A stretch of DNA of 57,842 bases, from assembly GCA_035502655.1 (NCBI GenBank), contig DATJUF010000243.1:1-57842 (forward strand). Reading direction: 5' to 3'. The DNA comes from Candidatus Binataceae bacterium (GTDB taxonomy: Bacteria; Desulfobacterota; Binatia; Binatales; Binataceae). The notes below the pieces were generated by a model. That model worked only from the letters and a program-made list of their open reading frames with translations, was not told the origin of the DNA and ran no database searches. Position 1 is the stretch's first letter. Every line of letters starts with the position of its first letter. Positions 20,952 through 43,338 of the stretch are shown here, piece by piece. Position numbers and translations under genes: made by a program.

Positions 20952-21911
20952 CTAAGCGGCCCTGGCAGCATTGATATAATAGCTGGCGACTTCGCGGCCG
21001 ATAAGCTCATTTTGTGCGGCCCAGGCGGAAGGCTCGGCCACGGGCCATAACACGAACTTGTCGAGGCCGACGTGGATATACTCGTCGAGGCGCGCGATGA
21101 TGTCCTCGGGTGAACCGTAAATCGTGCCTTTGGCGAAAGCGCTGGCGTTGGGCCCGAGCGACTTCAGCACGGGCTGCATGTCTTCCATTGCGCGTTCGCG
21201 CGATGGACCGAGACGGCAAAGAAAGATGAGGCCGGCCTCGATGTGAGCGTTGACGCGGCCCGCCTCCGAAGCATAGCGGCGCACGGTGGCCATATTGGCG
21301 GCGAATTCGGCGGGGCTCTGGAACGAGGCGAAATAGCCGTCGGCGAATCGCCCGGTACGTTTCAGGGCGGCGTCGGATTTGCCGCCCACCCATAGGTCGA
21401 TGGTGCCGTGGTCATTGTTGGTGCGAGCGACGGGGCGGGGCTCAATCGAGACATTGTCGAAATTGAAATACTTGCCGTGAAAGCTGGCTTTAGGTTCGGT
21501 CCAGACTTTGCGAAGAATCATTATGCCCTCGTCGAGGCGGCGGCCGCGGCCTTCGGTGGGAATGCCGACGGCGGCGTAATCGTCCAGGTTGGCGCCCGTC
21601 CCGACGGCCATCACGATGCGGCCCTTCGACAGATAGTCGAGGGTCGCAAAGGACTTGGCGGCAACCAGCGGGTGGCGAAGATTCAGCAGGAAAACGCTCG
21701 GGCCGAGGCGGATGCGCGAGGTGCGGGAGGCGAGCAGGGCGAGAGTCGCGACGACATCGAGTTCGGGAGAGGGTGCGAGCAGATGATCGGACAGCCAGAA
21801 GGAATCAAGGCCCCATTCTTCGGCGCGCTCGGCGACACGGACAATGGTGTCAGATTCCGGCATGCCGAGACGGAAGAGCCCAAACCCAACACCGACTTTA
21901 ATACGCTTCAT
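20952..21911 (-). CDS. LLM-class (luciferase-like) flavin/F420-dependent oxidoreductase
   Basis: Start at MKRIKVGVGFG. ...GLDSFWLSDHL...LDYLSKGRIVMAVGTG... is typical of the luciferase-like monooxygenase family. Confidence 0.85.
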   Translation of the reverse strand: MKRIKVGVGFGLFRLGMPESDTIVRVAERAEEWGLDSFWLSDHLLAPSPELDVVATLALLASRTSRIRLGPSVFLLNLRHPLVAAKSFATLDYLSKGRIVMAVGTGANLDDYAAVGIPTEGRGRRLDEGIMILRKVWTEPKASFHGKYFNFDNVSIEPRPVARTNNDHGTIDLWVGGKSDAALKRTGRFADGYFASFQSPAEFAANMATVRRYASEAGRVNAHIEAGLIFLCRLGPSRERAMEDMQPVLKSLGPNASAFAKGTIYGSPEDIIARLDEYIHVGLDKFVLWPVAEPSAWAAQNELIGREVASYYINAARAA

Positions 21912-21945
21912 TGCGCTACTCCAGACTAGGTTTTGCGATAATACG

Positions 21946-22740
21946 ATGCTATTAACAATGCCTATGCGCAATTCGCCATCGGTAGAAGGCGGTCTCGAGC
22001 TAACCTTCCTGGGAACAGGCGATGCGTTCGCGAGTCATGGGCGTTTTCAGTCGGGCTATATGATCGAGGCCGCGGATAGCAAGATTTTGATGGATCCGGG
22101 CCCTACGGCATTGTGTGCAATGAAGCGCGGCGGTTTCAAGCCTTCGGATGTTGACATCATTTTGGTTAGCCATCTGCATGGGGACCATTTTGGCGGACTG
22201 CCGTTTTTGCTGCTGGAATACGTTTACGAAAGCCCGCGTTCGACCAAGTTGGTTATAGCAGGCCCTCGCCATATTGAGGAGCGGACCTGGCGGTTGTTCA
22301 ATACGATGTTTCCGGGCACCAAGCCGGATTTGCCGAAGCTAGTGGGGCGGCTGAAGTTCGTGGTTCTGGAGCCAGGCTGCGATCTTAAGGTCGGGCCGAT
22401 ACGGCTGGCGGCGATGCGTACGCCCCATATGAAGCCACCGGAGGCGTCGCTGGCGCTGCGTTTGGGAGTGAATAATCGGACGGTGGTATTCTCGGGCGAT
22501 AGTGGATGGACCGATCAGATGGTCAGCTTTAGCGCCGGAGCGGACCTTTTTTTGTGCGAATGCACCTATTTTGACAGCACCGACCTGGATTTTCACATGA
22601 ACTACCCACTGCTTTCGGCTAATCGTGACCAATTTAATGTGGGACGGATGATCCTAACTCACATCGGGCGCGAGGTGCTGGACCGGATCGGGGACATCAA
22701 GCTTGAGATGGCGCAGGACGGGATGAAGGTCCGGGTGTGA
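21946..22740 (+). CDS. MBL-fold metallo-hydrolase
   Basis: LTFLGTGDAF...ILMDPG...ILVSHLHGDHFGGLPFLL carries the HxHxDH motif. Start is one of the ATGs at 21946, 21958 or 21964. The gene is divergent from the LLM gene. Confidence 0.85.
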   Translation: MLLTMPMRNSPSVEGGLELTFLGTGDAFASHGRFQSGYMIEAADSKILMDPGPTALCAMKRGGFKPSDVDIILVSHLHGDHFGGLPFLLLEYVYESPRSTKLVIAGPRHIEERTWRLFNTMFPGTKPDLPKLVGRLKFVVLEPGCDLKVGPIRLAAMRTPHMKPPEASLALRLGVNNRTVVFSGDSGWTDQMVSFSAGADLFLCECTYFDSTDLDFHMNYPLLSANRDQFNVGRMILTHIGREVLDRIGDIKLEMAQDGMKVRV

Positions 22741-23792: not shown

Positions 23793-24569
23793 ATGACTAT
23801 CATTCCAGTTTCGCAGTTATCGGACAATTACGCGTATCTAGTTGTAGACGAAGCGAGTAAGCAATGCGGGGTGGTGGACTGTTCGGAGGCGGGCAAAGTA
23901 CTCGACGAAGTCAAGCGTAATGGATTGAAGTTGGTAGCAGTGCTGCCGACCCATTACCATTTCGATCATGTCGGCGGGAATGAGGATTTGGTCAAGGCGG
24001 TGCGAGGGCTGCGTGTCTATGGCGCACGCGGCGAGAATGGGCGGATACCGGCGCAGACTGATGAAGTCGATGATGGCAGCACGGTCGAGATTGGCGAGTT
24101 GAAGGGGCGCGTGATTGGGATTCCGGCGCATACGAATGGGCATATCGCATACTACTTTCCGCGGCTGGAAGCAGTATTCACAGGCGATACATTATTTATC
24201 GGGGGATGCGGCCGGGTGTTTGAAGGCAAAGCCGAAACGATGGTCGCGTCGCTCAACAAGCTGGCTGAGCTGCCGGATAGTACAAAGATTTACTGCGGAC
24301 ACGAATATACTGAGAAGAATTTGCGCTTCGCGCTGACGCTCGAACCAAACAATGCAGAGCTCAAGGCGAAGCATGAGTGGGCGGTCAAGCAGCGAGCAGC
24401 GGGGCATTTTACAGTGCCATCGACGATTGAAGAAGAGAAGCTGATCAATCCATTTCTACGGACGGATAGTCCCGAGTTGCGGTCGAATCTAAGAAAAGTT
24501 GCGCCGGCGATTGGCGATGATCCGGTCGCGATATTTGCGAAGACGCGGGAGCTAAAGGACAGATTCTAG
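23793..24569 (+). CDS. gloB: hydroxyacylglutathione hydrolase (glyoxalase II)
   Basis: IIPVSQLSDNYAYLVVDE...LPTHYHFDHVGGN...PAHTNGHIAYYF...VFTGDTLFIGGCGRVFEG...YCGHEYT..NL.FA...EP.N. Confidence 0.92.
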   Translation: MTIIPVSQLSDNYAYLVVDEASKQCGVVDCSEAGKVLDEVKRNGLKLVAVLPTHYHFDHVGGNEDLVKAVRGLRVYGARGENGRIPAQTDEVDDGSTVEIGELKGRVIGIPAHTNGHIAYYFPRLEAVFTGDTLFIGGCGRVFEGKAETMVASLNKLAELPDSTKIYCGHEYTEKNLRFALTLEPNNAELKAKHEWAVKQRAAGHFTVPSTIEEEKLINPFLRTDSPELRSNLRKVAPAIGDDPVAIFAKTRELKDRF

Positions 24570-24712
24570 GTGCTGGGCTGAGTTTTTGCCTTTCTGAAAT
24601 CGTTATCGTCAAAGTTGGCCATGCGCTACCGCGATTCACGCGATCAAGCGTCGCGGCTAGATATTGATTCTAATCTTTGAAGCCATGGCCGCCGCTTCTG
24701 GTGAAGCGGTAG

Positions 24713-25531
24713 GTGGCTGTCCAGCCATTATGCTATAGACCGGATCAGGTGGTGGACGAATACATCGTTGAGCCGGACGTGATTCCGTGGCGCGAGGGGC
24801 GGATCGCAGGCATCACGTTCAAGTGCCAGGTACTTATGAACGGCGCGGACGGCGGTCCCGAGGCTTTGCGCTTCCGCTTCGATCCATGCCCTTCGGTCTT
24901 TGCGCACATGCATTTGACCTCGCAGTTTCAGTTGCTCCTCAATGGCCGAATGGATTTCCCCAAATCGACGATGAAACTGCGGGCAATCGCAGTCCATTAT
25001 ACGGACCACAATTTCCCCTACGGGCCGTTCGCTGTTGGCGACAGTCACGACATGCTGGTGCTGCATCCCAAACAGGGCGGCCTGATCAGCATGGCCGATC
25101 ATGACGCGCGACGCCAAATCAATCTTAAAGGACGCCATTTCTATGGCTCTGCGGCTGCTACCGATTGGATAAACCAGCCCGAGTTTCGAGGCGTGCGCTG
25201 CAAGCCGCTGATTCCACCGTCATCCGGACCTTATGCCGTAATACTCGAATGTCCGCCGCACGCCTGCTTGAATCTTCCGCCCGCGCCGTATGGCCGCTAC
25301 GAACTGGTGCTGGCCGGCTCTGCGTCAGTTTCAGGCCGCACGCTGCTTCCTCCCGGCCTCCGCTACGTACGCCATGATTCTGATGATGTGAGCACCATCA
25401 CTCCCATGGAAGCCGGGCGAGAGAGCGCCACTTTGATGCTGCTGGCGTTCGACAACGACGCATGCGAAGGTGGCCTGACTGGCGACCGCTTATCAGTTGC
25501 CGCGGCAGAAGCCATCGAGCGCGCGATTTAG
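24713..25531 (+). CDS. hypothetical protein (possibly a double cupin-like beta-barrel); first gene of the selenoprotein operon
   Basis: 272-aa ORF with a GTG start. No motif recognised with certainty. It lies 20 nt upstream of the next gene. Confidence 0.6.
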   Translation: MAVQPLCYRPDQVVDEYIVEPDVIPWREGRIAGITFKCQVLMNGADGGPEALRFRFDPCPSVFAHMHLTSQFQLLLNGRMDFPKSTMKLRAIAVHYTDHNFPYGPFAVGDSHDMLVLHPKQGGLISMADHDARRQINLKGRHFYGSAAATDWINQPEFRGVRCKPLIPPSSGPYAVILECPPHACLNLPPAPYGRYELVLAGSASVSGRTLLPPGLRYVRHDSDDVSTITPMEAGRESATLMLLAFDNDACEGGLTGDRLSVAAAEAIERAI

Positions 25532-25550
25532 TTTAATAGCGGAGGCTCTT

Positions 25551-26213
25551 ATGCTAAACGAAAATGCCACCGCTCCGTTGCCTGTAGTCGTCTTTGCCGA
25601 CTTCATTTGCCCATATTCCTATATCGCGCTCGACCAGATGGACGATCTGATGCGCGACTATAATATCGAATTGCTTTGGCGCCCCCATTGGCTGCATCCG
25701 GAAGTGCCACCCGCCGGGGCGCCGATTCCATCCGCTGCAACAGCCGGCCGCCGCGCGCAAACGCTCGCATGGCTTAAGGAAATGGCGCCCGAACGTACTG
25801 ACCGGATGCACTTTCCCGATCGCATCCAATTCAGCCTGTTTGCCTTCGAGGCACTGGAATTCGCCCAGGACCATGGGCTCGCGCTACCCTTCAAGACGGC
25901 GGTATTCGAGTCATTGTGGATCGAAGGGCGCGATATCGCGCAATTCGCGACGCTGCAGGCCGCTGCCGAAAAAGCTGGCCTCGATAGCGAGGAACTCGGC
26001 CGGGCGCTCTCGGCGCAGCGCTATCGCAAGCGCGTTCACGACGCTCTGCAACTGGCGCATGATGCGGGTGTTACCAAAACTCCGACTTTTGTCCTGGGCC
26101 GCTATCGTATCGCCGGATGGCACTACTATGAGGTCTTTCAGACTGTGATGGAAAAGCAAAACGTGCCGCTTCGCGCGGCCGTTGCCAACTCACTTCCACC
26201 GGTGGAGCACTGA
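25551..26213 (+). CDS. DsbA-family (FrnE/HCCA-isomerase-like) thioredoxin-fold protein, CPYS active-site variant
   Basis: GGAGG RBS followed by ATG. PVVVFADFICPYSYIALDQM... and a C-terminal ...GVTKTPTFVLGRYRIAGW are typical of DSBA-like thioredoxin domains. The motif is C-P-Y-S, not CxxC. Confidence 0.8.
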   Translation: MLNENATAPLPVVVFADFICPYSYIALDQMDDLMRDYNIELLWRPHWLHPEVPPAGAPIPSAATAGRRAQTLAWLKEMAPERTDRMHFPDRIQFSLFAFEALEFAQDHGLALPFKTAVFESLWIEGRDIAQFATLQAAAEKAGLDSEELGRALSAQRYRKRVHDALQLAHDAGVTKTPTFVLGRYRIAGWHYYEVFQTVMEKQNVPLRAAVANSLPPVEH

Positions 26214-26217
26214 TGCG

Positions 26218-27801
26218 ATGGCCTCGCTAGCGGCGTTTTCTCTCAACGATCTCGATGGAACGGCACGCATCTTTCCGAATGGCAAAGTGACTCTGCTGTG
26301 CTTTGTCCGCGAAGAATGCGAGACCTGCCATCTCTCAATGCCAGTGATCGAAGCGGTTTATCGCGCTTACGGCGGCGTGATCGATGTATGGGTGGCCGGC
26401 CAGGAGGACAATCAAAAGCTCCGTGACCGTTATCAGTTGACGGTTCCAATCCTCGATGACACCGGACTCAAAGTCTCCTTCAACTATAAGGTCCAGATTG
26501 TTCCGACGATCATTCTCGCCGGCGAATCGGGCGGCGAAATCGTACGCTGGGAAGCCTTTCATAAGGGCGACTGGCAGGACCTGATCGCCCGCCTATCGCA
26601 ACTTACGAATCTGCCGCCTCCCGGGATCGAATGGGACAAACTTCCGGCGCTCCGTCCCGGATGCGGTTCAAAGTCCGTCGAGCCTGGTATTTTCGAGCGT
26701 CTGGCAGCAGAAGCTGAGGGCAGTCCACTGCGCGCTCGGCAGATCGAGATCGCTGAGCGCGACGACCCGTTCGAGTTCATGTTCGATCAAGGCCTTACCG
26801 ACGGGCTTCCGGTGATCCCGCCTACGCCGGAACGAGTTATCCGGATGCTCGCCGGGACGCGCCGCAGCCCGCAGGAGGTTGCCGGTACCTGCGCGCCCAA
26901 TTACGCCCCGGTGACGATCGAGAAAATCGCGATTAACGCGGTGATGGCTGGTTGCAAGCCCGAGTATATGCCGGTCGTAATCGCCGCCACCGAAGCGCTC
27001 TGCTCGCATGAGTTCAACGCGCATGCGCTCGTCTCGACTTATGGTCCCTCGCCGGTGATCGTGGTCAATGGGCCGATCCGCAATCGTATCGGCATGAACA
27101 TGGGAATCAACGTACTCGGCCATGGCAATCGCGCCAACGCCACGATTGGCCGCGCGATCAAGCTGATCCTGCGTAACCTCGGCGGACTCCGGCCTGGTGA
27201 GATCGAGCGCGCGGCGCTGGGTTCGCCCGCCAAGTACGGCGCCTGCTACCCCGAATTCGAGGAGCGCAGTCCCTGGGAGCCACTACACGCCGAGCGCGGC
27301 TTTGACCGCAACGATAGCGTTGTTACGCTCTTTCAGCTCGAAGGCTCGCCCCATCAAATTGCCGATCAGACTTCGCGCACCGCACGTTCGCTGGCGGGCA
27401 GCCTCGGACTCGGGATGGAATGCGGATGGCACCCGAAGACCCATAGGGTCGGCGACGCGCTACTCGTAATCTCCCCCGAGCATGCCGATACGCTCTGGCG
27501 CGACCGCTGGAGCAAAGACGACGTGCGCAACCGTATTCAGGAGATCACCTCGCGCCCGTTGCGTGAGTTATTGCCGACTGAAGATTATGGAGGGCTCGGC
27601 GCGATGCCTGAGCAGGTGGCGCTTGAGCGTGGCCGTACACCTGAGCAACTCAACCGCCTGATGCCCAAGTTCAAGAGTCCGAAAAATATTCACATAATCG
27701 TTGCTGGCGGTCCCGCCGGAAAATGGTCCTCGGTCATCAATGGCTTCGGGGACGCGTCCGTATCGGTGCCGGTCAGCCGCAAAATCGAGGAGGCCGTCTG
27801 A
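26218..27801 (+). CDS. thioredoxin-like (TlpA/redoxin, CETC) domain fused to an uncharacterised ~390-aa Cys-containing domain
   Basis: Start ATG 26218, 4 nt after the dsbA-like stop. The N-terminus ...VTLLCFVREECETCHLSMPVIE... is redoxin-like. The rest (FMFDQGLTDGLPVIPPTPERV...INAVMAGCKPEYMPVV...GHGNRANATIGRA...) matches no family I can name. Its stop overlaps the next ATG. Confidence 0.8.
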   Translation: MASLAAFSLNDLDGTARIFPNGKVTLLCFVREECETCHLSMPVIEAVYRAYGGVIDVWVAGQEDNQKLRDRYQLTVPILDDTGLKVSFNYKVQIVPTIILAGESGGEIVRWEAFHKGDWQDLIARLSQLTNLPPPGIEWDKLPALRPGCGSKSVEPGIFERLAAEAEGSPLRARQIEIAERDDPFEFMFDQGLTDGLPVIPPTPERVIRMLAGTRRSPQEVAGTCAPNYAPVTIEKIAINAVMAGCKPEYMPVVIAATEALCSHEFNAHALVSTYGPSPVIVVNGPIRNRIGMNMGINVLGHGNRANATIGRAIKLILRNLGGLRPGEIERAALGSPAKYGACYPEFEERSPWEPLHAERGFDRNDSVVTLFQLEGSPHQIADQTSRTARSLAGSLGLGMECGWHPKTHRVGDALLVISPEHADTLWRDRWSKDDVRNRIQEITSRPLRELLPTEDYGGLGAMPEQVALERGRTPEQLNRLMPKFKSPKNIHIIVAGGPAGKWSSVINGFGDASVSVPVSRKIEEAV

Positions 27802-28334
27802 TGAGAATTCTTGACCCTACCGACGAACGCGTTCCGGTCCGGCGCTCGCTGGCTCCCCGTCCCGAGGGCGTGATGGGCACCGTCGGGCTGCTCGACATCA
27901 ACAAGGCGCGTGGCGACGTGATGCTTAAGCATGTGCAGCAGCGCCTGAATGAGCTGCTGCCCAACGTCGAAGTCAAACATTATCGCAAGCTGACGCCGGC
28001 CCGGCCCGCCGCTGACGAACTACGCCAGCAGATGCTGAAGGAGTGCGACTTCGTTATCGAAGGCCTCGCCGATTGAGGGGGCTGCATAACGTGCAGTTTG
28101 CACGACACAGTATGGTTCGAGAATAACGGCAAACCCACGGTCGTGATCGCCACCGACGTGTTTGTCGATGCCGCCGAGGCTCAATCATCCGCGCTGGGCT
28201 TGCCTGAAGCGCCGCGGGTCTTTGTCCCTCATCCGATTCAGGACGCCACTGACGAGGAGATTCGTGCGAAGGGTGACGCCGTCATCGAGCAGGTGATTCG
28301 CGCGCTTACAATGAACAAATCCTCGTCGCGGTAA
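27801..28334 (+). CDS. selenoprotein, UGSC-like family (Sec at codon 92 encoded by in-frame TGA 28074-28076)
   Basis: ATG 27801 follows GGAGG and overlaps the upstream stop (cTGATGa). Track ORFs 27723..28076 and 28098..28334 are in the same frame, separated only by TGA plus 7 sense codons. Read-through gives ...CDFVIEGLAD-U-GGCITCSLHDTVWFENNGKPTVVIATD... A SECIS-like hairpin lies directly downstream. Confidence 0.8.
28090..28104 (+). promoter_or_regulatory. bacterial SECIS-like hairpin
   Basis: CGUGCA-GUU-UGCACG. The loop G and U fall at +23/+24 counted from the U of UGA. The UGCA/UGCA apical stem resembles the E. coli fdhF SECIS (UGCA-GGUC-UGCA). Confidence 0.6.
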
Positions 28335-28347
28335 AACCCGGTGAGAG

Positions 28348-28369
28348 GCGTTCCGCGAAGGCGGGACGC
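28348..28369 (+). terminator. stable GNRA-type tetraloop hairpin after the selenoprotein gene (attenuator or partial terminator?)
   Basis: GCGUUCCGC-GAAG-GCGGGACGC (9 bp with one G.U), 14 nt after stop 28334. A short CUUUU lies a few nt further on. Confidence 0.35.
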
Positions 28370-28416
28370 GCTCCGACGCAGGCTTTTGAAACATCAGGCA
28401 GGAGGCCGGCGGTTTA

Positions 28417-29496
28417 ATGAAATTCGGGCTTCACTATCAACTCCCATGCACCGCTGACCAATCGCCGGTCCAGCGTTATCGCGACACGATTGAGCAGGCA
28501 GTGCACGCCGAGGGCCTGGGTTTCGAGTCCGTATGGCCGGTCGAACAGCATTTCAACGCCAGCCTCTCGATCATGCCCTCGCCGCTGCTGATGCTCGCGG
28601 CGATTGCTGAGCGCACACGTACGCTCCGCCTCGGTATCGGGATTATCCTGCTGCCGCTATCGCATCCTCTGCGCGTGGCTGAGGAAATTGCAACGCTCGA
28701 CGTCATCAGTAATGGCCGTGTCGAGTTTGGCATCGGCCGCGGGGCGATTCCCAAGCATTTCCGGGGCTTCGGTATTCCGATTGCCGAAAATCGGGACCGT
28801 TTCATTGAGGGTTTAGAGATAATCCGTCAAGCATGGACCAGTGATGGGTTTTCTTACCATGGCCGCTTTTTCGATTTAGAGCGCATCTCCGTCGTGCCCA
28901 AGCCGGTCCAGCAGCCGCATCCACCGATCCGCGTTGCGACTAACAGCGAGGAGACATTCGAGGTCATGGGCCGGATGGGCCTGCCGATCTGCGCTGCGTC
29001 GCAGGTCAATCCATTTCACCGAATCAAGCGCTTCCTGGTGACGTACCGTGAAGCGCGCAAGGCCGCCTGTCATCCCGCTGCTGGCCCGGAGGACGTCTCG
29101 ATTCTGATGCCGCTCTACGTTGGCACGAGCGCCGCTCAAGTGCGGCGCGAAATGGAACCGAGCATCAAGTATTTCCTGAGCACAGCCACCTCGTTGTTTG
29201 GATCGGGAGCTCCGCTGCCGGGCGCCTCGCGATCCAGCGGATCGCAACCGGACGCCACGGTGCGCCTCAAGCAGACGCTGGAACGTCTCGCAAGCATGAC
29301 CTACGAGCAGGTATGCGAGCGGATGGCGATCTTCGACACTCCCGAGGCATGCATTGAGCGGCTGCAAGGTTACCGCGAGGATTTCAAGATGGGCCGCGTG
29401 ATCTGCTGGTTCAATCCGGGCGGCCAAGTGCCGCATCAACAGGTCCTGCGTAGTATGGAGCTGTTCGCCGCTAAGGTAATGCCGCATTTCGCCTAG
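28417..29496 (+). CDS. LLM-class flavin-dependent oxidoreductase
   Basis: AGGAGG RBS. MKFGLHYQLP...GLGFESVWPVEQHF...LDVISNGRVEFGIGRG is the luciferase-like monooxygenase signature. Confidence 0.88.
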   Translation: MKFGLHYQLPCTADQSPVQRYRDTIEQAVHAEGLGFESVWPVEQHFNASLSIMPSPLLMLAAIAERTRTLRLGIGIILLPLSHPLRVAEEIATLDVISNGRVEFGIGRGAIPKHFRGFGIPIAENRDRFIEGLEIIRQAWTSDGFSYHGRFFDLERISVVPKPVQQPHPPIRVATNSEETFEVMGRMGLPICAASQVNPFHRIKRFLVTYREARKAACHPAAGPEDVSILMPLYVGTSAAQVRREMEPSIKYFLSTATSLFGSGAPLPGASRSSGSQPDATVRLKQTLERLASMTYEQVCERMAIFDTPEACIERLQGYREDFKMGRVICWFNPGGQVPHQQVLRSMELFAAKVMPHFA

Positions 29497-29610
29497 CCGA
29501 ATCCTTCAACCCGGCGGGTGACGTTGTATCTTCGCGAGCGAGCGTTGCTTACACTTGGCCGGCTAAGTTTCCGAGCCTGGTTTAGTAGTTATGCAGCTCC
29601 GCAGATTTTC

Positions 29611-30249
29611 TTACGCGGCGTCCGGCTGATGCTCTGGACGCGCTTTCTCGAAAGCCTCGACCTTGCTGCATTCGGCGCAGATCCGGCGAATGGTTGGGAA
29701 AGCGGCCATCTCCACGCCTGATCGTTCTGCGTTATAAACCTGCGGCACGATGAAAATGTCGGCCAGCGTCGGCTTATCGCCATGACAGAAGCGACCCGTC
29801 GCCGGCGAACCCGCCAGCATCGCTTCGATCGAGCGAAAACCCTCGGTCATCCAATAGCGGCTCCATTCCGCGCGCTGCTCTTCGGTGGCATGGAACACCC
29901 GCCCGAGGTAGGCTTGCGCGCGCCCACCCTGGATCGGATGGATCTCGCATGCGACCGCGAGCGCGATAGCGCGGACCCGCGCCCGTCCCGCCGGGTCGCT
30001 CGGCAGGATCGGCGGCTGCGGATGGGTTTCCTCCAGGTACTCGCAAATCGCCAGTGACTGGCCGATCACATTGCCATTATCTTCGAGCGCAGGAACCCGG
30101 CCCTGAGGATTAAGCGCCTCGTAGGCAGGCGCGCGTGATTCGCCACGCGCCAGATTGATTGAAATATTCTCATAGCTGAGACTCTTGAGATTCGCGACGA
30201 TCCGCACCCGGTAACTCGCCGACGACCGGAAATAGTTGTAGAGCTTCAT
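29611..30249 (-). CDS. maiA: maleylacetoacetate isomerase (zeta-class GST)
   Basis: MKLYNYFRSSASYRVRIVANLK...NPQGRVPAL...GQSLAICEYLEE is the zeta-GST SSxxxRVRI motif. Confidence 0.88.
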   Translation of the reverse strand: MKLYNYFRSSASYRVRIVANLKSLSYENISINLARGESRAPAYEALNPQGRVPALEDNGNVIGQSLAICEYLEETHPQPPILPSDPAGRARVRAIALAVACEIHPIQGGRAQAYLGRVFHATEEQRAEWSRYWMTEGFRSIEAMLAGSPATGRFCHGDKPTLADIFIVPQVYNAERSGVEMAAFPTIRRICAECSKVEAFEKARPEHQPDAA

Positions 30250-35926: not shown

Positions 35927-36913
35927 TCATCGCACTTTCGGCAGAATGTCCTCCTTTAGCCTTATCAGATCGGTCATTGTTTTCGCTGTGGGCACACCCT
36001 TAAATGGCGGCCACAGCAGCGGAAGCGTCAGGCCCGCCTCCTGGTAACGCTTGAGGTTGTCTACAAGCTGCTGCGAAGTTCCAGTCATCGAAGGTGTCAG
36101 CTTCCCTCTTGGAGTCTGATCCGTTTTTTCGCTCGTGATCTCGAAAAACAGCATGCTCGCGATTTCGAGGCCATCCATTGGGCGCGAACTGCCGATTGCT
36201 TCGAGTTCCTCTTTAATCGCCGACCGCCACTTCGTGATCTCTTCGGGTGTGTCCTGTATTCCGATCCAGCCCGCCAGCCCATATTTGGCGACCCGTTTCG
36301 CCGCGATCTTCGGTACGCCAAGCCCTCCAAAAAAGATCGGCGGGTGAGGCTTCTGAATTGGCTTTACCCCAAAGCCGCATTTCGGAAACGAGGCGAACTC
36401 GCCGTGATATTCGAAGAGTTCCTGAGTCCAGACACCCTGCATTATCTCGATAGTTTCGATCACGTGTTTGTTGCGTCTTTCGTAAATGTGCGCGGCGCTC
36501 GCTGCCTCGAACTCCTCGGGCATCCAGCCGGTTCCGACACCTACGTTGACCCTGCCTTCCGAAAGATGATCCCAAGTCGCGATCTCCGCCGCCAGGACTC
36601 CTGGGGCGCGATAGGGTGTGTCGATCACGCTGACACCGAGCCTGATTTTCTTCGTGATGGCAGCCAGGTACGGAATCAGCGGCAGCCCGTGAAGGAACTC
36701 GCCTCTCGCAGCTACTGGCAGTGAACGAGGAAACTCTTTCATGAAGCCGAATGGCTTGCGCAACTCCTGGCGGTCCGAGGCTTCCGGAACCACGATACGA
36801 TCCAGCGTCCAGATGGAATCGAACTCCAACTGCTCGGCGAGGCGGGCGAGATCGACGATCTCACTGACGGTTATCTTGTCCCTGAAGTTTGGCAGGTATA
36901 ATGCCAGTTTCAT
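35927..36913 (-). CDS. LLM-class F420/flavin-dependent oxidoreductase
   Basis: MKLALYLPNF...LEFDSIWTLDRIV...DHLSEGRVNVGVGTGW. Confidence 0.85.
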   Translation of the reverse strand: MKLALYLPNFRDKITVSEIVDLARLAEQLEFDSIWTLDRIVVPEASDRQELRKPFGFMKEFPRSLPVAARGEFLHGLPLIPYLAAITKKIRLGVSVIDTPYRAPGVLAAEIATWDHLSEGRVNVGVGTGWMPEEFEAASAAHIYERRNKHVIETIEIMQGVWTQELFEYHGEFASFPKCGFGVKPIQKPHPPIFFGGLGVPKIAAKRVAKYGLAGWIGIQDTPEEITKWRSAIKEELEAIGSSRPMDGLEIASMLFFEITSEKTDQTPRGKLTPSMTGTSQQLVDNLKRYQEAGLTLPLLWPPFKGVPTAKTMTDLIRLKEDILPKVR

Positions 36914-39829: not shown

Positions 39830-40354
39830 CTAAATGGCTTGTTCGGCCTTGCGCCGCAGTCTGAGCGTCCCCGAAGGATGCCGCGGGAGGCCGTTGGAAG
39901 CTTCATTTCCTGCTTCCAATTCAGGCTGGTTTAGACTTTCGCTGTGGCCTGTTTCTTCAACCTCGACCAGTATGATCTCCATAATGCGCTGAAGCTGGTT
40001 GCTTCCGGCATCGCGCAAAGTCTGTGCGATCTGCTTCAGCTTCGGATGCTGCTCCCCCGCTATATAACCGTTCAGCATTAAGCTTCGAAGCGTCCGGTTC
40101 TCTTCCCTTAGCTGCCTACTCTCATCTTCCAGTTCCATCACGCGCTTGCTATGCGCCGATGAAACTCTCGGCGACGCGATGGCCTTCCGGGTTCCTTTGC
40201 CAGCGGCCTTGGCGATGCTGCCAAGTCTCTTCTTCCATTGCATCAAGCTGGCAGCCGAGCATTTATGCTTCTTTGAAGCTTGCTCAAGTGTCATTCCATT
40301 CTTCAAGTCAGCAAGCGCGGCTTGCTTTTCCGCTTCAGTGAAGCGCCTGGCCAT
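39830..40354 (-). CDS. orphan IS3/IS911 OrfA-like HTH protein (no OrfB or transposase catalytic gene nearby)
   Basis: MARRFTEAEKQAALADLKNGMTLEQASKKHKCSAASLMQWKKRLG is HTH_Tnp_1-like. It is followed by a leucine-zipper-like segment (ELEDESRQLREENRTLRSL). The local region is more AT-rich. Confidence 0.55.
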   Translation of the reverse strand: MARRFTEAEKQAALADLKNGMTLEQASKKHKCSAASLMQWKKRLGSIAKAAGKGTRKAIASPRVSSAHSKRVMELEDESRQLREENRTLRSLMLNGYIAGEQHPKLKQIAQTLRDAGSNQLQRIMEIILVEVEETGHSESLNQPELEAGNEASNGLPRHPSGTLRLRRKAEQAI

Positions 40355-41452: not shown

Positions 41453-42006
41453 GATCACGCTCCTTTCAAAGTCAAAGCGCGCCAACACGTAATCGCCCGA
41501 GGTTGAAACGCTTAACCGCAGCGGCCTTTGTTGGCGATAAATTAGAACTGCTCATTACCATTTTCGTCGAACCAATCGCCACCATTGCGCGGTTAACTCC
41601 CGAATACGCCTGAAACGCCTAAATCCTAAGCCAGCATATCTCATGATAAAAGCTGGAGCCTGCCATCCGCCGAAGCGTCCTCCAGTCGCAGGATGCTACA
41701 AGTCTTTGCGAACGGGTGAATTTCAGCGCTAATCCGTCGCAGGCGCCCGCCCCATTGCCGGCAAGAAACCAATGGACCACCGCTGACATCCCTGATCTCG
41801 CCGGTAAGACGTTAACGGCACCGATTACTTCGGGTTCGATGACCTTGGTGGGCTTTGGGGCCGTTCCGGTCCTGGGTAGCTCGGCTGCGCGCGACCACGC
41901 CGCCCCCCGCCTCTGGGAGATTCGCAACCCACCGGCGTCCACAATGATCTATAATGGGTTGCTTGGATTCCCGTGCATGCGAGAATCTGGGAGCATCTGC
42001 GAAAAT

Positions 42007-43338
42007 ATGAGTAACCCCCGGCAATTAAACCTCGGCGCCTTCATGCGGCCCATCAGCATTCACACCGCAGCGTGGCGCTATCCCGGCGCTTGGCCTGACG
42101 CGAACTTTAATTTTAAGCATCTGATGCGCTTCGCCCAGACCCTTGAGCGCGGATGCTTCGATGCCTTCTTTATGGCCGACCATCTCGCCGTGCTCAACAT
42201 GCCGATGCAGGCGCTGATGCGCAGTGCTACCGTCACTTCCTTCGATCCGCTGACGTTATTGCCCGCGCTGGCCGTCGTCACCGAGCATCTGGGCCTTATC
42301 GCCACTGCTTCCACAACCTACAATGAGCCTTATCACGTCGCACGGAAGTTCGCCTCGCTCGACCATCTGAGCGGCGGCCGCGCCGGCTGGAATGTAGTGA
42401 CCTCCGGCAATCCCGACGAAGCGCAGAACTTCGGCCTCGAGGAACACGCCGAGCACGACGAGCGCTACCGCCGGGCCCGTGAGTTCTTCGACGTTGTGAC
42501 CGGCCTCTGGGATAGCTGGGCCGACGATGCCTTCATTCGCGACGTTGAATCTGGTGTTTACTTCGATCCGGCGAAACTCCATGTCCTGAATCACGTTGGC
42601 GAACATCTCAAAGTGCGCGGTCCACTTAATATCGCGCGGCCGATTCAAGGCTGGCCCGTCATTGTCCAGGCTGGAGCCTCAGAAGCGGGCCGCCAGCTCG
42701 CCGCCGAAACTGCCGAGGTAATATTTGCACCCGCGAGTAGTATCGCGAATGCGCGTGCCTTCTACGCTGACGTTAAAGGCCGCATGGCCAGGCTCGGCCG
42801 TGACCCCAGCCATCTCAAGGTCCTGCCCGGAGCGTTTGTAGTTATTGGCGATACCGTCAAGGAAGCGCAGGAGAAGCGCGCCCGCCTCGACCGTCTCGTA
42901 CATTACGACAGTGCGATCGCTTCGCTTTCGATCGCGCTCGGCCACGACGCTTCGGGGTTCGATCCCGAAGGCCCTTTACCGCCGATTCCCGAAAGCAACG
43001 CGAGCCAAAGCGGACGCGAGCGTATCGTCGAACTGGCGCGGCGCGACCATCTGACCGTACGGGAGCTCGCACAGCGCGTCGGCGGCTATAGCGGACTCGC
43101 CTTCGCCGGCACGCCTGCGACGATCGCCGATCAGATGGAGGAATGGCTCTTCACCGAAGCCTCCGACGGCTTCAATATTATGTTTCCCTATCTGCCCGGC
43201 GGCCTCGACGATTTCGTTGATCGCGTAATCCCGGAGCTCCAGCGGCGCGGGCTTTTCCGCCGCGCCTATGAGGGCGTCACCCTCAGGGAAAATCTCGGCC
43301 TGCCCCGCCCATCCAATCGCTTCTTTCCTTCCCGCTAA
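42007..43338 (+). CDS. NtaA/DmoA/SnaA-type FMN-dependent (LLM-class) monooxygenase
   Basis: Start MSNPRQLNLGAFMRPISIHTAAWRYPG... ...FDAFFMADHLAV...LDHLSGGRAGWNVVTS...ERY.RA.EF..V...LW.SW.DDAF is the characteristic nitrilotriacetate-monooxygenase component A family pattern. Confidence 0.88.
   Translation: MSNPRQLNLGAFMRPISIHTAAWRYPGAWPDANFNFKHLMRFAQTLERGCFDAFFMADHLAVLNMPMQALMRSATVTSFDPLTLLPALAVVTEHLGLIATASTTYNEPYHVARKFASLDHLSGGRAGWNVVTSGNPDEAQNFGLEEHAEHDERYRRAREFFDVVTGLWDSWADDAFIRDVESGVYFDPAKLHVLNHVGEHLKVRGPLNIARPIQGWPVIVQAGASEAGRQLAAETAEVIFAPASSIANARAFYADVKGRMARLGRDPSHLKVLPGAFVVIGDTVKEAQEKRARLDRLVHYDSAIASLSIALGHDASGFDPEGPLPPIPESNASQSGRERIVELARRDHLTVRELAQRVGGYSGLAFAGTPATIADQMEEWLFTEASDGFNIMFPYLPGGLDDFVDRVIPELQRRGLFRRAYEGVTLRENLGLPRPSNRFFPSR

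What the first reader, a model, noticed from the sequence alone, without database searches (positions are those of the whole stretch)
27801..28334. In-frame UGA fuses two predicted ORFs into one 177-aa U-G-G-C-x-x-C selenoprotein
- **Seen:** track ORFs 27723..28076 and 28098..28334 share a reading frame (the offset is 375 nt). The only stop between them is TGA at 28074-28076, followed by 7 sense codons.
- **Seen:** read-through gives ...KECDFVIEGLAD-U-GGCITCSLHDTVWFENNGKPTVVIATDVFV.... This puts the recoded position first in a UxxCxxC redox-type motif.
- **Seen:** the likely start is ATG 27801. It follows GGAGG and overlaps the upstream stop (TGATG).
- **Known:** a 'UGSC-containing' selenoprotein family of about this size, with Cys-containing homologs, was reported from marine metagenome selenoproteome surveys. 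This looks like a UGGC variant.
- **Consequence:** standard gene callers would split or truncate this gene.
Basis: partly seen in the sequence, partly recalled or inferred. Interest (0 to 1): 0.85.

Follow-up and report, generated by a model that had tools for sequence, protein, structure and literature searches.

The report
UGSC-family selenoprotein gene with SECIS
The in-frame TGA is real and almost certainly encodes selenocysteine in a 177-residue protein of the already described "UGSC" selenoprotein family, so this is a correct but ordinary find; the family's function is still unknown, and it is tightly coupled to an uncharacterised upstream partner gene.

Summary
Every detail of the observation checks out. 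TGA 28074-28076 joins two same-frame ORFs into a 177-aa product starting at ATG 27801.

- **Family:** the read-through protein passes the curated models for the UGSC family: NCBIfam NF041046 at 150.6 bits (cut-off 125) and Pfam PF24696, residues 2-170. Both span the TGA.
- **Conserved TGA:** all 80 related genome loci, from at least five phyla, have TGA at this codon. Substitutions are third-position biased on both sides of it.
- **Cys homologues:** 54 of 61 full-length homologues have Cys in that column. Gene callers cut 61 of 63 partial hits exactly there.
- **SECIS:** the 6-bp hairpin CGUGCA-GUU-UGCACG (28090-28104) pairs in 432 of 432 cells, and its synonymous sites are frozen. It places G23/U24 at the same distance from UGA as in E. 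coli fdhF, and it is absent from distant Cys forms.
- **Not verified:** no sel genes lie in the window.

Beyond the finding:
- AlphaFold gives a flavodoxin-like fold, not the proposed thioredoxin fold.
- The upstream gene (thioredoxin-like domain plus a ~390-aa domain with no family) is adjacent in 71 of 80 loci and is fused to UGSC elsewhere.
- A link to GrdB/PrdB selenoproteins is suggestive only.

Verdict: new member of a known kind.

The parts
27789..27793 (+). Ribosome-binding site GGAGG, 7 nt upstream of the start codon
   Evidence: Read directly from the sequence.
27801..28334 (+). UGSC-family selenoprotein gene: 177 codons plus stop TAA. The start ATG overlaps the stop of the upstream gene (TGATG).
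   Evidence: NF041046 at 150.6 bits (cut-off 125) and PF24696 at 154.8 bits over residues 2-170. Orthologues in 80 loci. Third-position substitution bias on both sides of the TGA.
28074..28076 (+). In-frame UGA, codon 92, read as selenocysteine. It is the first residue of U-G-G-C-I-T-C.
   Evidence: TGA at the aligned codon in 80 of 80 loci. Cys in 54 of 61 full-length homologues.
28090..28104 (+). Bacterial SECIS-like hairpin: stem 28090-28095 CGUGCA, loop 28096-28098 GUU, stem 28099-28104 UGCACG. Counting the U of UGA as 1, the loop G and U are positions 23 and 24.
   Evidence: 432 of 432 cells paired in 72 distinct sequences, with G-C in 59, G-U in 12 and A-U in 1 at one pair. Rival hairpins pair in about 80% of cells. 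Synonymous sites inside it are frozen. Same G23/U24 register as E. coli fdhF. Absent in distant Cys forms.
26218..27801 (+). Conserved partner gene (527 aa), translationally coupled to the UGSC gene. It has an N-terminal thioredoxin-like domain with C-E-T-C (Cys34 and Cys37, 26317-26328) and a C-terminal domain of about 390 aa with no known family.
   Evidence: Directly upstream in 71 of 80 loci and the only conserved neighbour. Foldseek matches ResA/TlpA for the N-terminal domain only. No Pfam, NCBIfam or PDB sequence match for the C-terminal domain. Fused to UGSC in other organisms.
26725..27798 (+). Uncharacterised 'X' domain of the partner protein (about residues 170-527). Conserved motifs: DGLPV(I/V)PPT, NAVMAGCKPEY, GNRANATIGRA, SPWEP, SPEHAD.
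   Evidence: Alignment A5 invariant columns. Partner HMM positions about 180-525 match the fusion proteins and the stand-alone upstream genes of Cys-form operons.

Best explanation
Window 27801-28334 is a single gene for a 177-residue cytoplasmic selenoprotein of the UGSC family.

**Decoding.** UGA 28074-28076 is decoded as selenocysteine. When the ribosome reaches it, the minimal hairpin 28090-28104 (CGUGCA-GUU-UGCACG) presents a loop G and U at positions 23 and 24 from the UGA, as in E. coli fdhF. This would recruit SelB carrying Sec-tRNA(Sec). The recruitment step is inferred.

**The protein.** It is predicted to fold as a five-stranded flavodoxin/Rossmann-like alpha/beta domain. Sec92 sits in the two-residue loop between strand 3 and helix 3. 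Cys95 lies one helical turn further on and Cys98 two turns.

**Proposed function.** The most likely chemistry is a selenol/thiol redox cycle in which Sec92 and Cys95 form a selenenylsulfide. It would be carried out together with the product of the translationally coupled upstream gene. That product supplies a thioredoxin-like CxxC domain, the likely reductant of the Se-S bond, and a ~390-aa uncharacterised domain, the likely substrate-handling part. The substrate is unknown.

**What is shown:** gene structure, family membership, conservation of the UGA, the hairpin, the predicted fold, and the partner linkage. **What is inferred:** Sec insertion itself, the Se-S cycle, and the division of labour with the partner.
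For: - **Family models span the TGA:** NF041046 at 150.6 bits (cut-off 125); PF24696 over residues 2-170.
- **Conserved TGA:** at this codon in 80 of 80 loci from Binataceae, Dehalococcoidia/Tepidiformaceae, Pseudomonadales, Alphaproteobacteria, Myxococcota and Thermodesulfobacteriota.
- **Coding on both sides:** substitutions by codon position are 215/166/630 downstream and 276/195/474 upstream of the TGA.
- **Cys homologues:** Cys in the Sec column in 54 of 61 full-length homologues.
- **TGA still a stop:** it ends 11 of 33 long ORFs in the window.
- **Hairpin:**
  - 432 of 432 cells are paired, with a G-C, G-U, A-U series at one pair.
  - Synonymous sites at alignment columns 27, 30, 33 and 36 are invariant or nearly so, while the flanking synonymous sites vary.
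  - It is the minimum-energy fold once the 12-15 nt after the UGA are occluded.
  - It has the same G23/U24 register as the verified fdhF element.
  - It is lost in distant TGC forms, with 3 of 6 pairs.
- **Fold:** AlphaFold2 model of the 51%-identical Cys homologue P0135 has pLDDT 89.7 and five beta-alpha units.
- **Partner:**
  - It is adjacent in 71 of 80 loci and is the only conserved neighbour.
  - It is fused to UGSC in both orders.
  - It is present upstream of Cys-form genes too, once next to a thioredoxin-reductase-like gene.
Against: - No selA, selB, selC or selD lies in the 57.8-kb window or in the flanks of 60 related loci. The decoding machinery of this organism is therefore unverified.
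- The covariation evidence for the hairpin is thin. Five of six pairs never vary, and the shuffle control is not significant (82 of 500). The case rests on frozen synonymous sites and on register.
- In free RNA a competing hairpin is more stable in this window: -11.6 against -7.4 kcal/mol.
- Rfam has no match here, but I know of no bacterial SECIS model in Rfam, so this says little.
- The structure was predicted for a homologue, not for the window protein. Model coordinates could not be inspected, so the distances between Sec, Cys and His are not known.
- The redox role and the partner's role are inferences.
Confidence: 0.9

Rival explanations
1. The TGA is a true stop. Either there are two separate small genes (27801-28076 and 28098-28334), or this is a gene inactivated by a nonsense mutation.
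For: A mechanical ORF list and most public gene calls treat it this way. A TTG codon sits 7 codons after the TGA.
Against: - The same TGA is present in 80 of 80 orthologues across phyla.
- Both halves evolve under the same third-position bias in one frame.
- One curated family model spans both halves.
- 54 Cys-containing homologues read straight through.
- The 7 codons between the TGA and the TTG encode the most conserved motif of the family.
Confidence: 0.02
2. The TGA is a sequencing or assembly error, or a very recent mutation of TGC/TGT, and the organism makes a Cys form.
For: One-base variants exist in public data: TGT, TGG and GGA forms that still carry the hairpin.
Against: The closest relatives (92-95% identical; L001, L002, L003) and all other loci have TGA. 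The SECIS-type hairpin is intact in the window.
Confidence: 0.02
3. The UGA is read through without selenium, by near-cognate decoding as Trp, Cys or Arg, or by a reassigned code, because the organism lacks the Sec pathway.
For: No sel gene is seen in the window. A few database proteins show W, R or G at the position.
Against: - TGA is an ordinary stop for 11 of 33 genes here.
- The one W form examined is a real TGG codon, not a translated TGA.
- A hairpin with the fdhF register is kept only in TGA forms and their one-base derivatives.
- The family is a recognised selenoprotein family (PMC2398784, PMC13188914).
Confidence: 0.04
4. On function only: the protein is a selenoprotein, but Sec92, Cys95, Cys98, His101, Asp102 and the PHPIQD motif form a metal- or selenium/sulfur-carrier site rather than a catalytic Se-S redox pair.
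For: - U/C-x-x-C-x-x-C followed by H-D, plus a second conserved His (PHP), all lie in loops at the C-terminal edge of the sheet. That is a plausible ligand set.
- The fold resembles cofactor-binding flavodoxin-like and B12-binding domains, although weakly (TM at most 0.5).
Against: - The third Cys is not conserved in the wider family and is often Trp.
- The partner carries a thioredoxin-like CxxC domain.
- One Cys-form operon includes a thioredoxin-reductase-like gene. Both point to disulfide-type redox chemistry.
Confidence: 0.2

Closest known systems
UGSC family (seleno)protein (NCBIfam NF041046, Pfam PF24696). This is the 'UGSC-containing protein' of Zhang and Gladyshev, first noted in Hyphomonas neptunium and in marine metagenomes (PMC1976440, PMC2398784).
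   Same: It scores above the curated cut-off. Size, motif position, in-frame UGA, downstream hairpin, rare Cys homologues among close relatives and unknown function all agree.
   Different: The motif reads U-G-G-C instead of U-G-S-C, which is a change at a variable position. The host is a Candidatus Binataceae-like soil or freshwater lineage rather than a marine one. The predicted fold is flavodoxin-like, not the thioredoxin-like fold suggested in 2008 (against PMC2398784).
E. coli fdhF SECIS element (SelB-binding hairpin)
   Same: Both are hairpins immediately 3' of the UGA. The 3' arm UGCAC occupies positions 26-30 in both, and the loop G and U occupy positions 23 and 24. The roles of G23 and U24 in SelB binding are from my own knowledge of the fdhF literature.
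   Different: The loop has 3 nt (GUN) instead of 4 (GGUC). There is no bulged U and no long lower stem. SelB binding was not tested.
GrdB/PrdB family selenoproteins (Pfam PF07355; glycine, sarcosine, betaine and D-proline reductase component B)
   Same: The local layout is shared: a beta-strand, then U-x-x-C at a helix start, then a strand, then a P-R...(F/H)P-x-G motif. A profile-profile alignment puts Sec on Sec with probability 63% and E 6.9e-5; 30 shuffled controls scored at most 22.7 against 35.9. Both families work with a second protein and a thioredoxin-type reductant; for GrdB/PrdB this is from my own knowledge.
   Different: There is no PF07355 hit at E up to 1. The first, smaller comparison gave only 12% probability. 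UGSC is much shorter. The partner shows no similarity to these proteins, and no pyruvoyl-type partner was shown.
Thioredoxin-fold selenoproteins (Trx-like, Prx-like and DsbA-like U-x-x-C proteins)
   Same: They share a U-x-x-C motif at the N-terminus of a helix and a likely selenenylsulfide chemistry.
   Different: The predicted topology is five beta-alpha units with the motif after strand 3. It is not the beta-alpha-beta...beta-beta-alpha thioredoxin fold with the motif after strand 1. No thioredoxin-fold structures appear among the Foldseek hits.

Membership tests
UGSC family (seleno)protein (NF041046 / PF24696) | Whole-protein HMM score above the curated cut-off, with the match spanning the Sec position | tested here: met
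   NF041046 at 150.6 bits against a cut-off of 125, residues 27-170. PF24696 at 154.8 bits against 25, residues 2-170.
UGSC family (seleno)protein (NF041046 / PF24696) | Sec (or Cys) as the first residue of a U-G-S-C type motif near the middle of a protein of about 170-180 aa | tested here: met
   U92-G-G-C95 in a 177-aa product. Orthologues have U-G-(S/A)-C. G at the third position also occurs in Cys homologues.
Bacterial selenoprotein gene (general criteria) | In-frame UGA conserved in orthologues, with Cys in the same column of homologues | tested here: met
   TGA in 80 of 80 loci. Cys in 54 of 61 full-length homologues.
Bacterial selenoprotein gene (general criteria) | SECIS stem-loop shortly downstream of the UGA with a conserved G/U in the apical loop | tested here: met
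   Hairpin 28090-28104 with loop GUU starting 19 nt after the UGA. It pairs in 100% of cells in 72 sequences, its synonymous sites are frozen, and it has the fdhF register. Covariation itself is weak, with one compensatory pair.
Bacterial selenoprotein gene (general criteria) | selA, selB, selC (tRNA-Sec) and selD present in the same genome | not testable with these tools
   None is in the 57.8-kb window or in the flanks of 60 loci.
Bacterial selenoprotein gene (general criteria) | Selenium actually incorporated at the UGA position | not testable with these tools
   Requires 75Se labelling or mass spectrometry.
GrdB/PrdB reductase selenoprotein B family (PF07355) | Match to the family HMM | tested here: not met
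   No PF07355 hit at E up to 1. The published GOS PrdB/GrdB-like sequences do hit it, 9 of 14.
GrdB/PrdB reductase selenoprotein B family (PF07355) | Homology of the Sec-bearing segment (strand, U-x-x-C helix, strand, PR..P-x-G) | tested here: inconclusive
   hhalign gave 12% probability with small alignments, 32%, and 63% with E 6.9e-5 with larger ones, Sec aligned to Sec. Shuffled controls reached at most 4.7%.
Thioredoxin-fold oxidoreductases | Thioredoxin fold with the redox motif after strand 1 | tested here: not met
   The AlphaFold2 model (pLDDT 89.7) has five beta-alpha units with the motif after strand 3. Foldseek hits are flavodoxin-like, lumazine synthase and B12-binding domains with TM at most 0.5.

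The most novel reading that the evidence does not exclude
The UGSC protein and its upstream partner form a previously unrecognised two-component, selenium-dependent reductase. In this reading UGSC is a stand-alone version of the Sec-bearing module of GrdB/PrdB-type reductases. The ~390-aa domain without a family is the substrate-activating subunit, and the fused thioredoxin-like domain recycles the selenenylsulfide. That would give a biochemical role to one of the most abundant selenoprotein families in aquatic metagenomes.
Probability: 0.2. Interest if true: 0.7.

Novelty: new member of a known kind. Interest (0 to 1): 0.3.

Why it matters
For the window itself the result is an annotation fix. 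One 177-codon selenoprotein gene should replace two fragments. The same error affects thousands of database entries: nearly all N-terminal hits stop at the Sec codon.

For the family, the by-products are of more use.
- The fold is predicted to be flavodoxin-like, not thioredoxin-like.
- The SECIS element is a very small hairpin kept at the nucleotide level across phyla.
- The gene almost always follows, and is sometimes fused to, a protein with a thioredoxin-like domain and a large domain that no library describes.

The UGSC family has had no function assigned since it was first reported (PMC1976440, PMC2398784, PMC13188914). This partner gives experimenters something concrete to co-express and test.

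Tried and rejected
- **Rfam:** nothing relevant at the gathering threshold or at E up to 10 around the TGA. As far as I know Rfam has no bacterial SECIS model, so this is uninformative.
- **Two alternative hairpins:** the window's minimum-energy fold (28079-28099) and a longer one favoured in other loci pair in only 79.5% and 80.9% of cells. Both were rejected in favour of the 6-bp hairpin.
- **Search for sel genes and tRNA-Sec:** none in the window or in locus flanks.
- **Other selenoprotein genes in the window:** none seen when inspecting a list of 101 in-frame TGAs.
- **PDB sequence searches:** for UGSC, with a single sequence and with a profile, only chance-level hits. For the partner, hits to the thioredoxin domain only.
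- **Foldseek on the partner:** swamped by the thioredoxin domain. The C-terminal domain could not be searched alone.
- **Partner against PrdB-like profile:** no similarity.
- **Close Cys, Trp and Gly variants as 'no SECIS' controls:** this failed, because they still carry the hairpin and are one-base derivatives of TGA. Distant Cys forms had to be used instead.
  - The window's partner protein is not on record in the contig index.
- **GOS Figure S1A (UGSC/Unknown_1 fusion):** held only as an image, so I could not check whether Unknown_1 is the partner domain.
Full report
**1. The observation**

- ORFs 27723..28076 and 28098..28334 are in one frame.
- The only stop between them is TGA 28074-28076.
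- Seven sense codons follow it before the TTG that a mechanical ORF finder uses as a start.
- ATG 27801-27803 overlaps the stop TGA 27799-27801 of the upstream gene, and GGAGG (27789-27793) lies 7 nt upstream.

Read-through from 27801 gives 177 residues, with the recoded position at residue 92 in ...EGLAD-U-GGCITCSLHD.... Homologues begin two to four residues before the conserved ILDPTDER. So 27801, not 27723, is the start.

**2. What it is**

With U written as C, the protein scores 150.6 bits on NCBIfam NF041046 'UGSC family (seleno)protein' (cut-off 125). It scores 154.8 bits on Pfam PF24696 'UGSC' over residues 2-170. One family model therefore covers both 'ORFs'.

The family is well documented. 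It appears as the 'UGSC-containing protein' of the Olavius symbiont study, which calls it 'a selenoprotein of unknown function' (PMC1976440). The Global Ocean Sampling selenoproteome found 255 Sec forms against 21 Cys forms, made it one of the major families, and proposed a thioredoxin-like fold (PMC2398784). A 2026 review lists it under NF041046 (PMC13188914).

**3. Conservation of the UGA**

A scan of one genome per species returned 80 loci. The closest, at 92-95% identity, are Candidatus Binataceae MAGs, so the window probably comes from that lineage. The others are Dehalococcoidia/Tepidiformaceae, Pseudomonadales/Azotimanducaceae, Alphaproteobacteria (Henriciella, Roseobacter-type), Myxococcota and Thermodesulfobacteriota.

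All 80 have TGA at the aligned codon. The motif is U-G-S-C in 74 sequences, U-G-A-C in 6, and U-G-G-C only in the window.

Differences between the window and 18 orthologues fall on codon positions 1/2/3 as 215/166/630 downstream of the TGA and 276/195/474 upstream. Both halves are therefore translated in this frame and are under purifying selection.

TGA ends 11 of 33 long ORFs in the window, so the code is not reassigned.

**4. Cys homologues and gene-caller behaviour**

A profile search of 5.8 billion proteins gave 4170 hits. Of 128 inspected, 113 end exactly at ...LAD, the residue before Sec.

An exhaustive HMMER search of 1.84 billion cluster representatives gave 2651 hits. Among the best 149:
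- 61 contain both halves, and the Sec column holds Cys in 54 of them (R 2, S 2, W 1, E 1, G 1).
- 63 contain only the N-terminal half, and 61 of those stop exactly before the Sec column.

This is the classical signature of a selenoprotein family.

**5. The SECIS element**

In 72 distinct 60-nt segments (alignment A1), the hairpin CGUGCA-GUN-UGCACG is paired in 432 of 432 cells. One pair shows G-C in 59, G-U in 12 and A-U in 1. In window coordinates it is stem 28090-28095, loop 28096-28098, stem 28099-28104.

Two competing hairpins reach only 79.5% and 80.9% pairing.

The formal covariation statistics are weak, because five of the six pairs never vary. The stronger argument is that synonymous sites inside the element are invariant or nearly so: the ACG, TGC, AGT and NTG third positions, alignment columns 27, 30, 33 and 36. 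Synonymous sites just outside it (columns 15, 18, 21, 24, 42) vary freely.

Counting the U of UGA as 1, the loop G and U are positions 23 and 24 and the 3' arm UGCAC is positions 26-30. This is the same register as in the E. coli fdhF element, whose sequence I verified in 5413 genomes.

In free RNA the window prefers another fold: -11.6 against -7.4 kcal/mol. Once the 12-15 nt after the UGA are occluded, the conserved hairpin becomes the minimum-energy structure. I infer that such occlusion happens when a ribosome sits on the UGA.

Controls:
- Two distant true Cys forms (TGC; L084, L086) form only 3 of 6 pairs in this register and use other Cys and Ser codons.
- Three close read-through variants (TGT, TGG, GGA; L081-L083) still carry the hairpin. 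They are one-base derivatives of TGA.

**6. What could not be shown**

No selA, selB, selD or tRNA-Sec lies in the window or in the flanks of 60 loci. The rest of the genome is not available here. Sec insertion is therefore inferred from comparative evidence, not demonstrated.

**7. Fold**

An AlphaFold2 model of the 51%-identical Cys homologue P0135 has pLDDT 89.7 and pTM 0.84. The window halves were rows in its input alignment. The model has five beta-alpha units, that is, a flavodoxin/Rossmann-like sandwich.

The Sec-position Cys (residue 95 of the model) lies in the two-residue loop between strand 3 and helix 3. The family's other conserved motifs (KPRG, KPTF-KPAP, PHPIQD) lie in the loops after strands 1, 2 and 5. 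That places them all on the same edge of the sheet.

Foldseek against the PDB finds only generic relatives with TM at most 0.5: lumazine synthase, flavodoxin, the MttC B12-binding domain and dipicolinate synthase B. It finds no thioredoxin folds. This contradicts the 2008 suggestion of a thioredoxin-like fold.

**8. The partner**

The gene 26218-27801 (527 aa) ends on the UGSC start codon.
- Its N-terminal ~130 residues are a ResA/TlpA-type thioredoxin domain with C-E-T-C.
- The remaining ~390 residues match nothing in Pfam, NCBIfam or PDB sequences.
- The protein has more than 7800 homologue clusters, annotated 'TlpA family', 'redoxin' or hypothetical.

Evidence for the link to UGSC:
- A homologue lies directly upstream of UGSC in 71 of 80 loci.
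- It is the only neighbour conserved across loci.
- Fusion proteins exist in both orders. In one, a Cys-form UGSC is followed by the unknown domain (P0347, P0362, P0366, P0376, P0393; E 1e-63 to 1e-88). In the other, the unknown domain is followed by a UGSC half that stops at the Sec codon (P0385, P0346 and others).
- Cys-form operons keep the partner too. One adds a thioredoxin-reductase-like gene just upstream.

Conserved adjacency and fusion together argue for one functional unit.

**9. Mechanism proposed**

Gene structure, family, the conserved UGA, the hairpin, the predicted fold and the partner linkage are shown. The rest is inferred:
- SelB-dependent Sec insertion at codon 92.
- A Sec92-Cys95 selenenylsulfide redox cycle at the helix N-terminus.
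- Re-reduction of that bond by the partner's thioredoxin-like domain.
- A substrate-handling role for the unknown domain.

**10. A possible deeper relationship**

I took GrdB/PrdB-like selenoprotein sequences from the GOS supplementary dataset; 9 of 14 hit PF07355. They share the local layout: strand, U-x-x-C helix, strand, then P-R...P-x-G.

Profile-profile comparison rose from 12% probability to 32% and then to 63% (E 6.9e-5, score 35.9, 95 columns) as the alignments were enlarged. In the last comparison Sec aligns to Sec. Thirty column-shuffled controls reached a score of at most 22.7.

This is suggestive, not established. The UGSC protein does not hit PF07355, and the partner shows no similarity to these proteins.

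**11. Verdict**

It is a new member, with a one-residue motif variant, of a selenoprotein family known for about two decades and already covered by an NCBI naming model.

Interest is modest for the locus itself. It is somewhat higher for the family-level leads: the fold, the minimal SECIS, the partner with an undescribed domain, and the possible GrdB/PrdB link.

Noticed in passing
window 26218-27801: The upstream gene encodes a thioredoxin-like CxxC domain plus a ~390-aa domain with no Pfam, NCBIfam or PDB sequence match. It has more than 7800 homologue clusters and is usually annotated only as 'TlpA family' or 'redoxin'. It is a large undescribed domain family, and it is tied to UGSC by adjacency and by fusion.
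   Followed up: partly
window 23793-30249: The local gene set is thiol- and glutathione-flavoured: hydroxyacylglutathione hydrolase (23793-24569), ChrR-like cupin (24713-25531), DsbA/HCCA-isomerase-like protein with a C-P-Y-S motif (25497-26213), the partner, UGSC, a luciferase-like monooxygenase (28417-29496) and maleylacetoacetate isomerase/GST zeta (29611-30249, minus strand). Only the cupin and the DsbA-like gene are shared with the closest Binataceae loci (L001-L004).
   Followed up: partly
L083:1479-3543: In the one close homologue with GGA (Gly) instead of TGA, the partner gene is split into two ORFs (304 and 185 aa) while the SECIS-type hairpin is still present. This looks like a decaying operon or an assembly with errors.
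   Followed up: no
L084:476-3555 and L085: A Cys-form UGSC operon reads GntR regulator, thioredoxin-reductase-like Pyr_redox_2 gene, partner (481 aa), UGSC. This suggests an NAD(P)H-driven electron supply.
   Followed up: no
proteins P0346, P0385, P0351, P0319, P0377: These are fusions of the partner's unknown domain with a UGSC half that stops at the Sec codon. They contain an extra hydrophobic stretch, and their source organisms are unknown. They may correspond to the 'UGSC/Unknown_1' fusion of the GOS paper and to the algal UGSC entries (PMC7539508).
   Followed up: no
window 28349-28371: There is an imperfect GC-rich inverted repeat (GCGTTCCGC-GAAG-GCGGGACGC) 15 nt after the UGSC stop codon, without a T-run. 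It may be a weak terminator or an mRNA-stabilising hairpin before the monooxygenase gene.
   Followed up: no
window 20952-21971, 28417-29496, 35927-36913, 41716-43338: The window holds four luciferase-like (LLM/F420-type) oxidoreductase genes, together with a P450, two SDRs, two amidohydrolases and a molybdopterin hydroxylase. This is a catabolic, oxidoreductase-rich region.
   Followed up: no
window 39830-40354: A transposase-type helix-turn-helix ORF (HTH_Tnp_1) lies on the minus strand. It is a possible insertion-sequence remnant.
   Followed up: no
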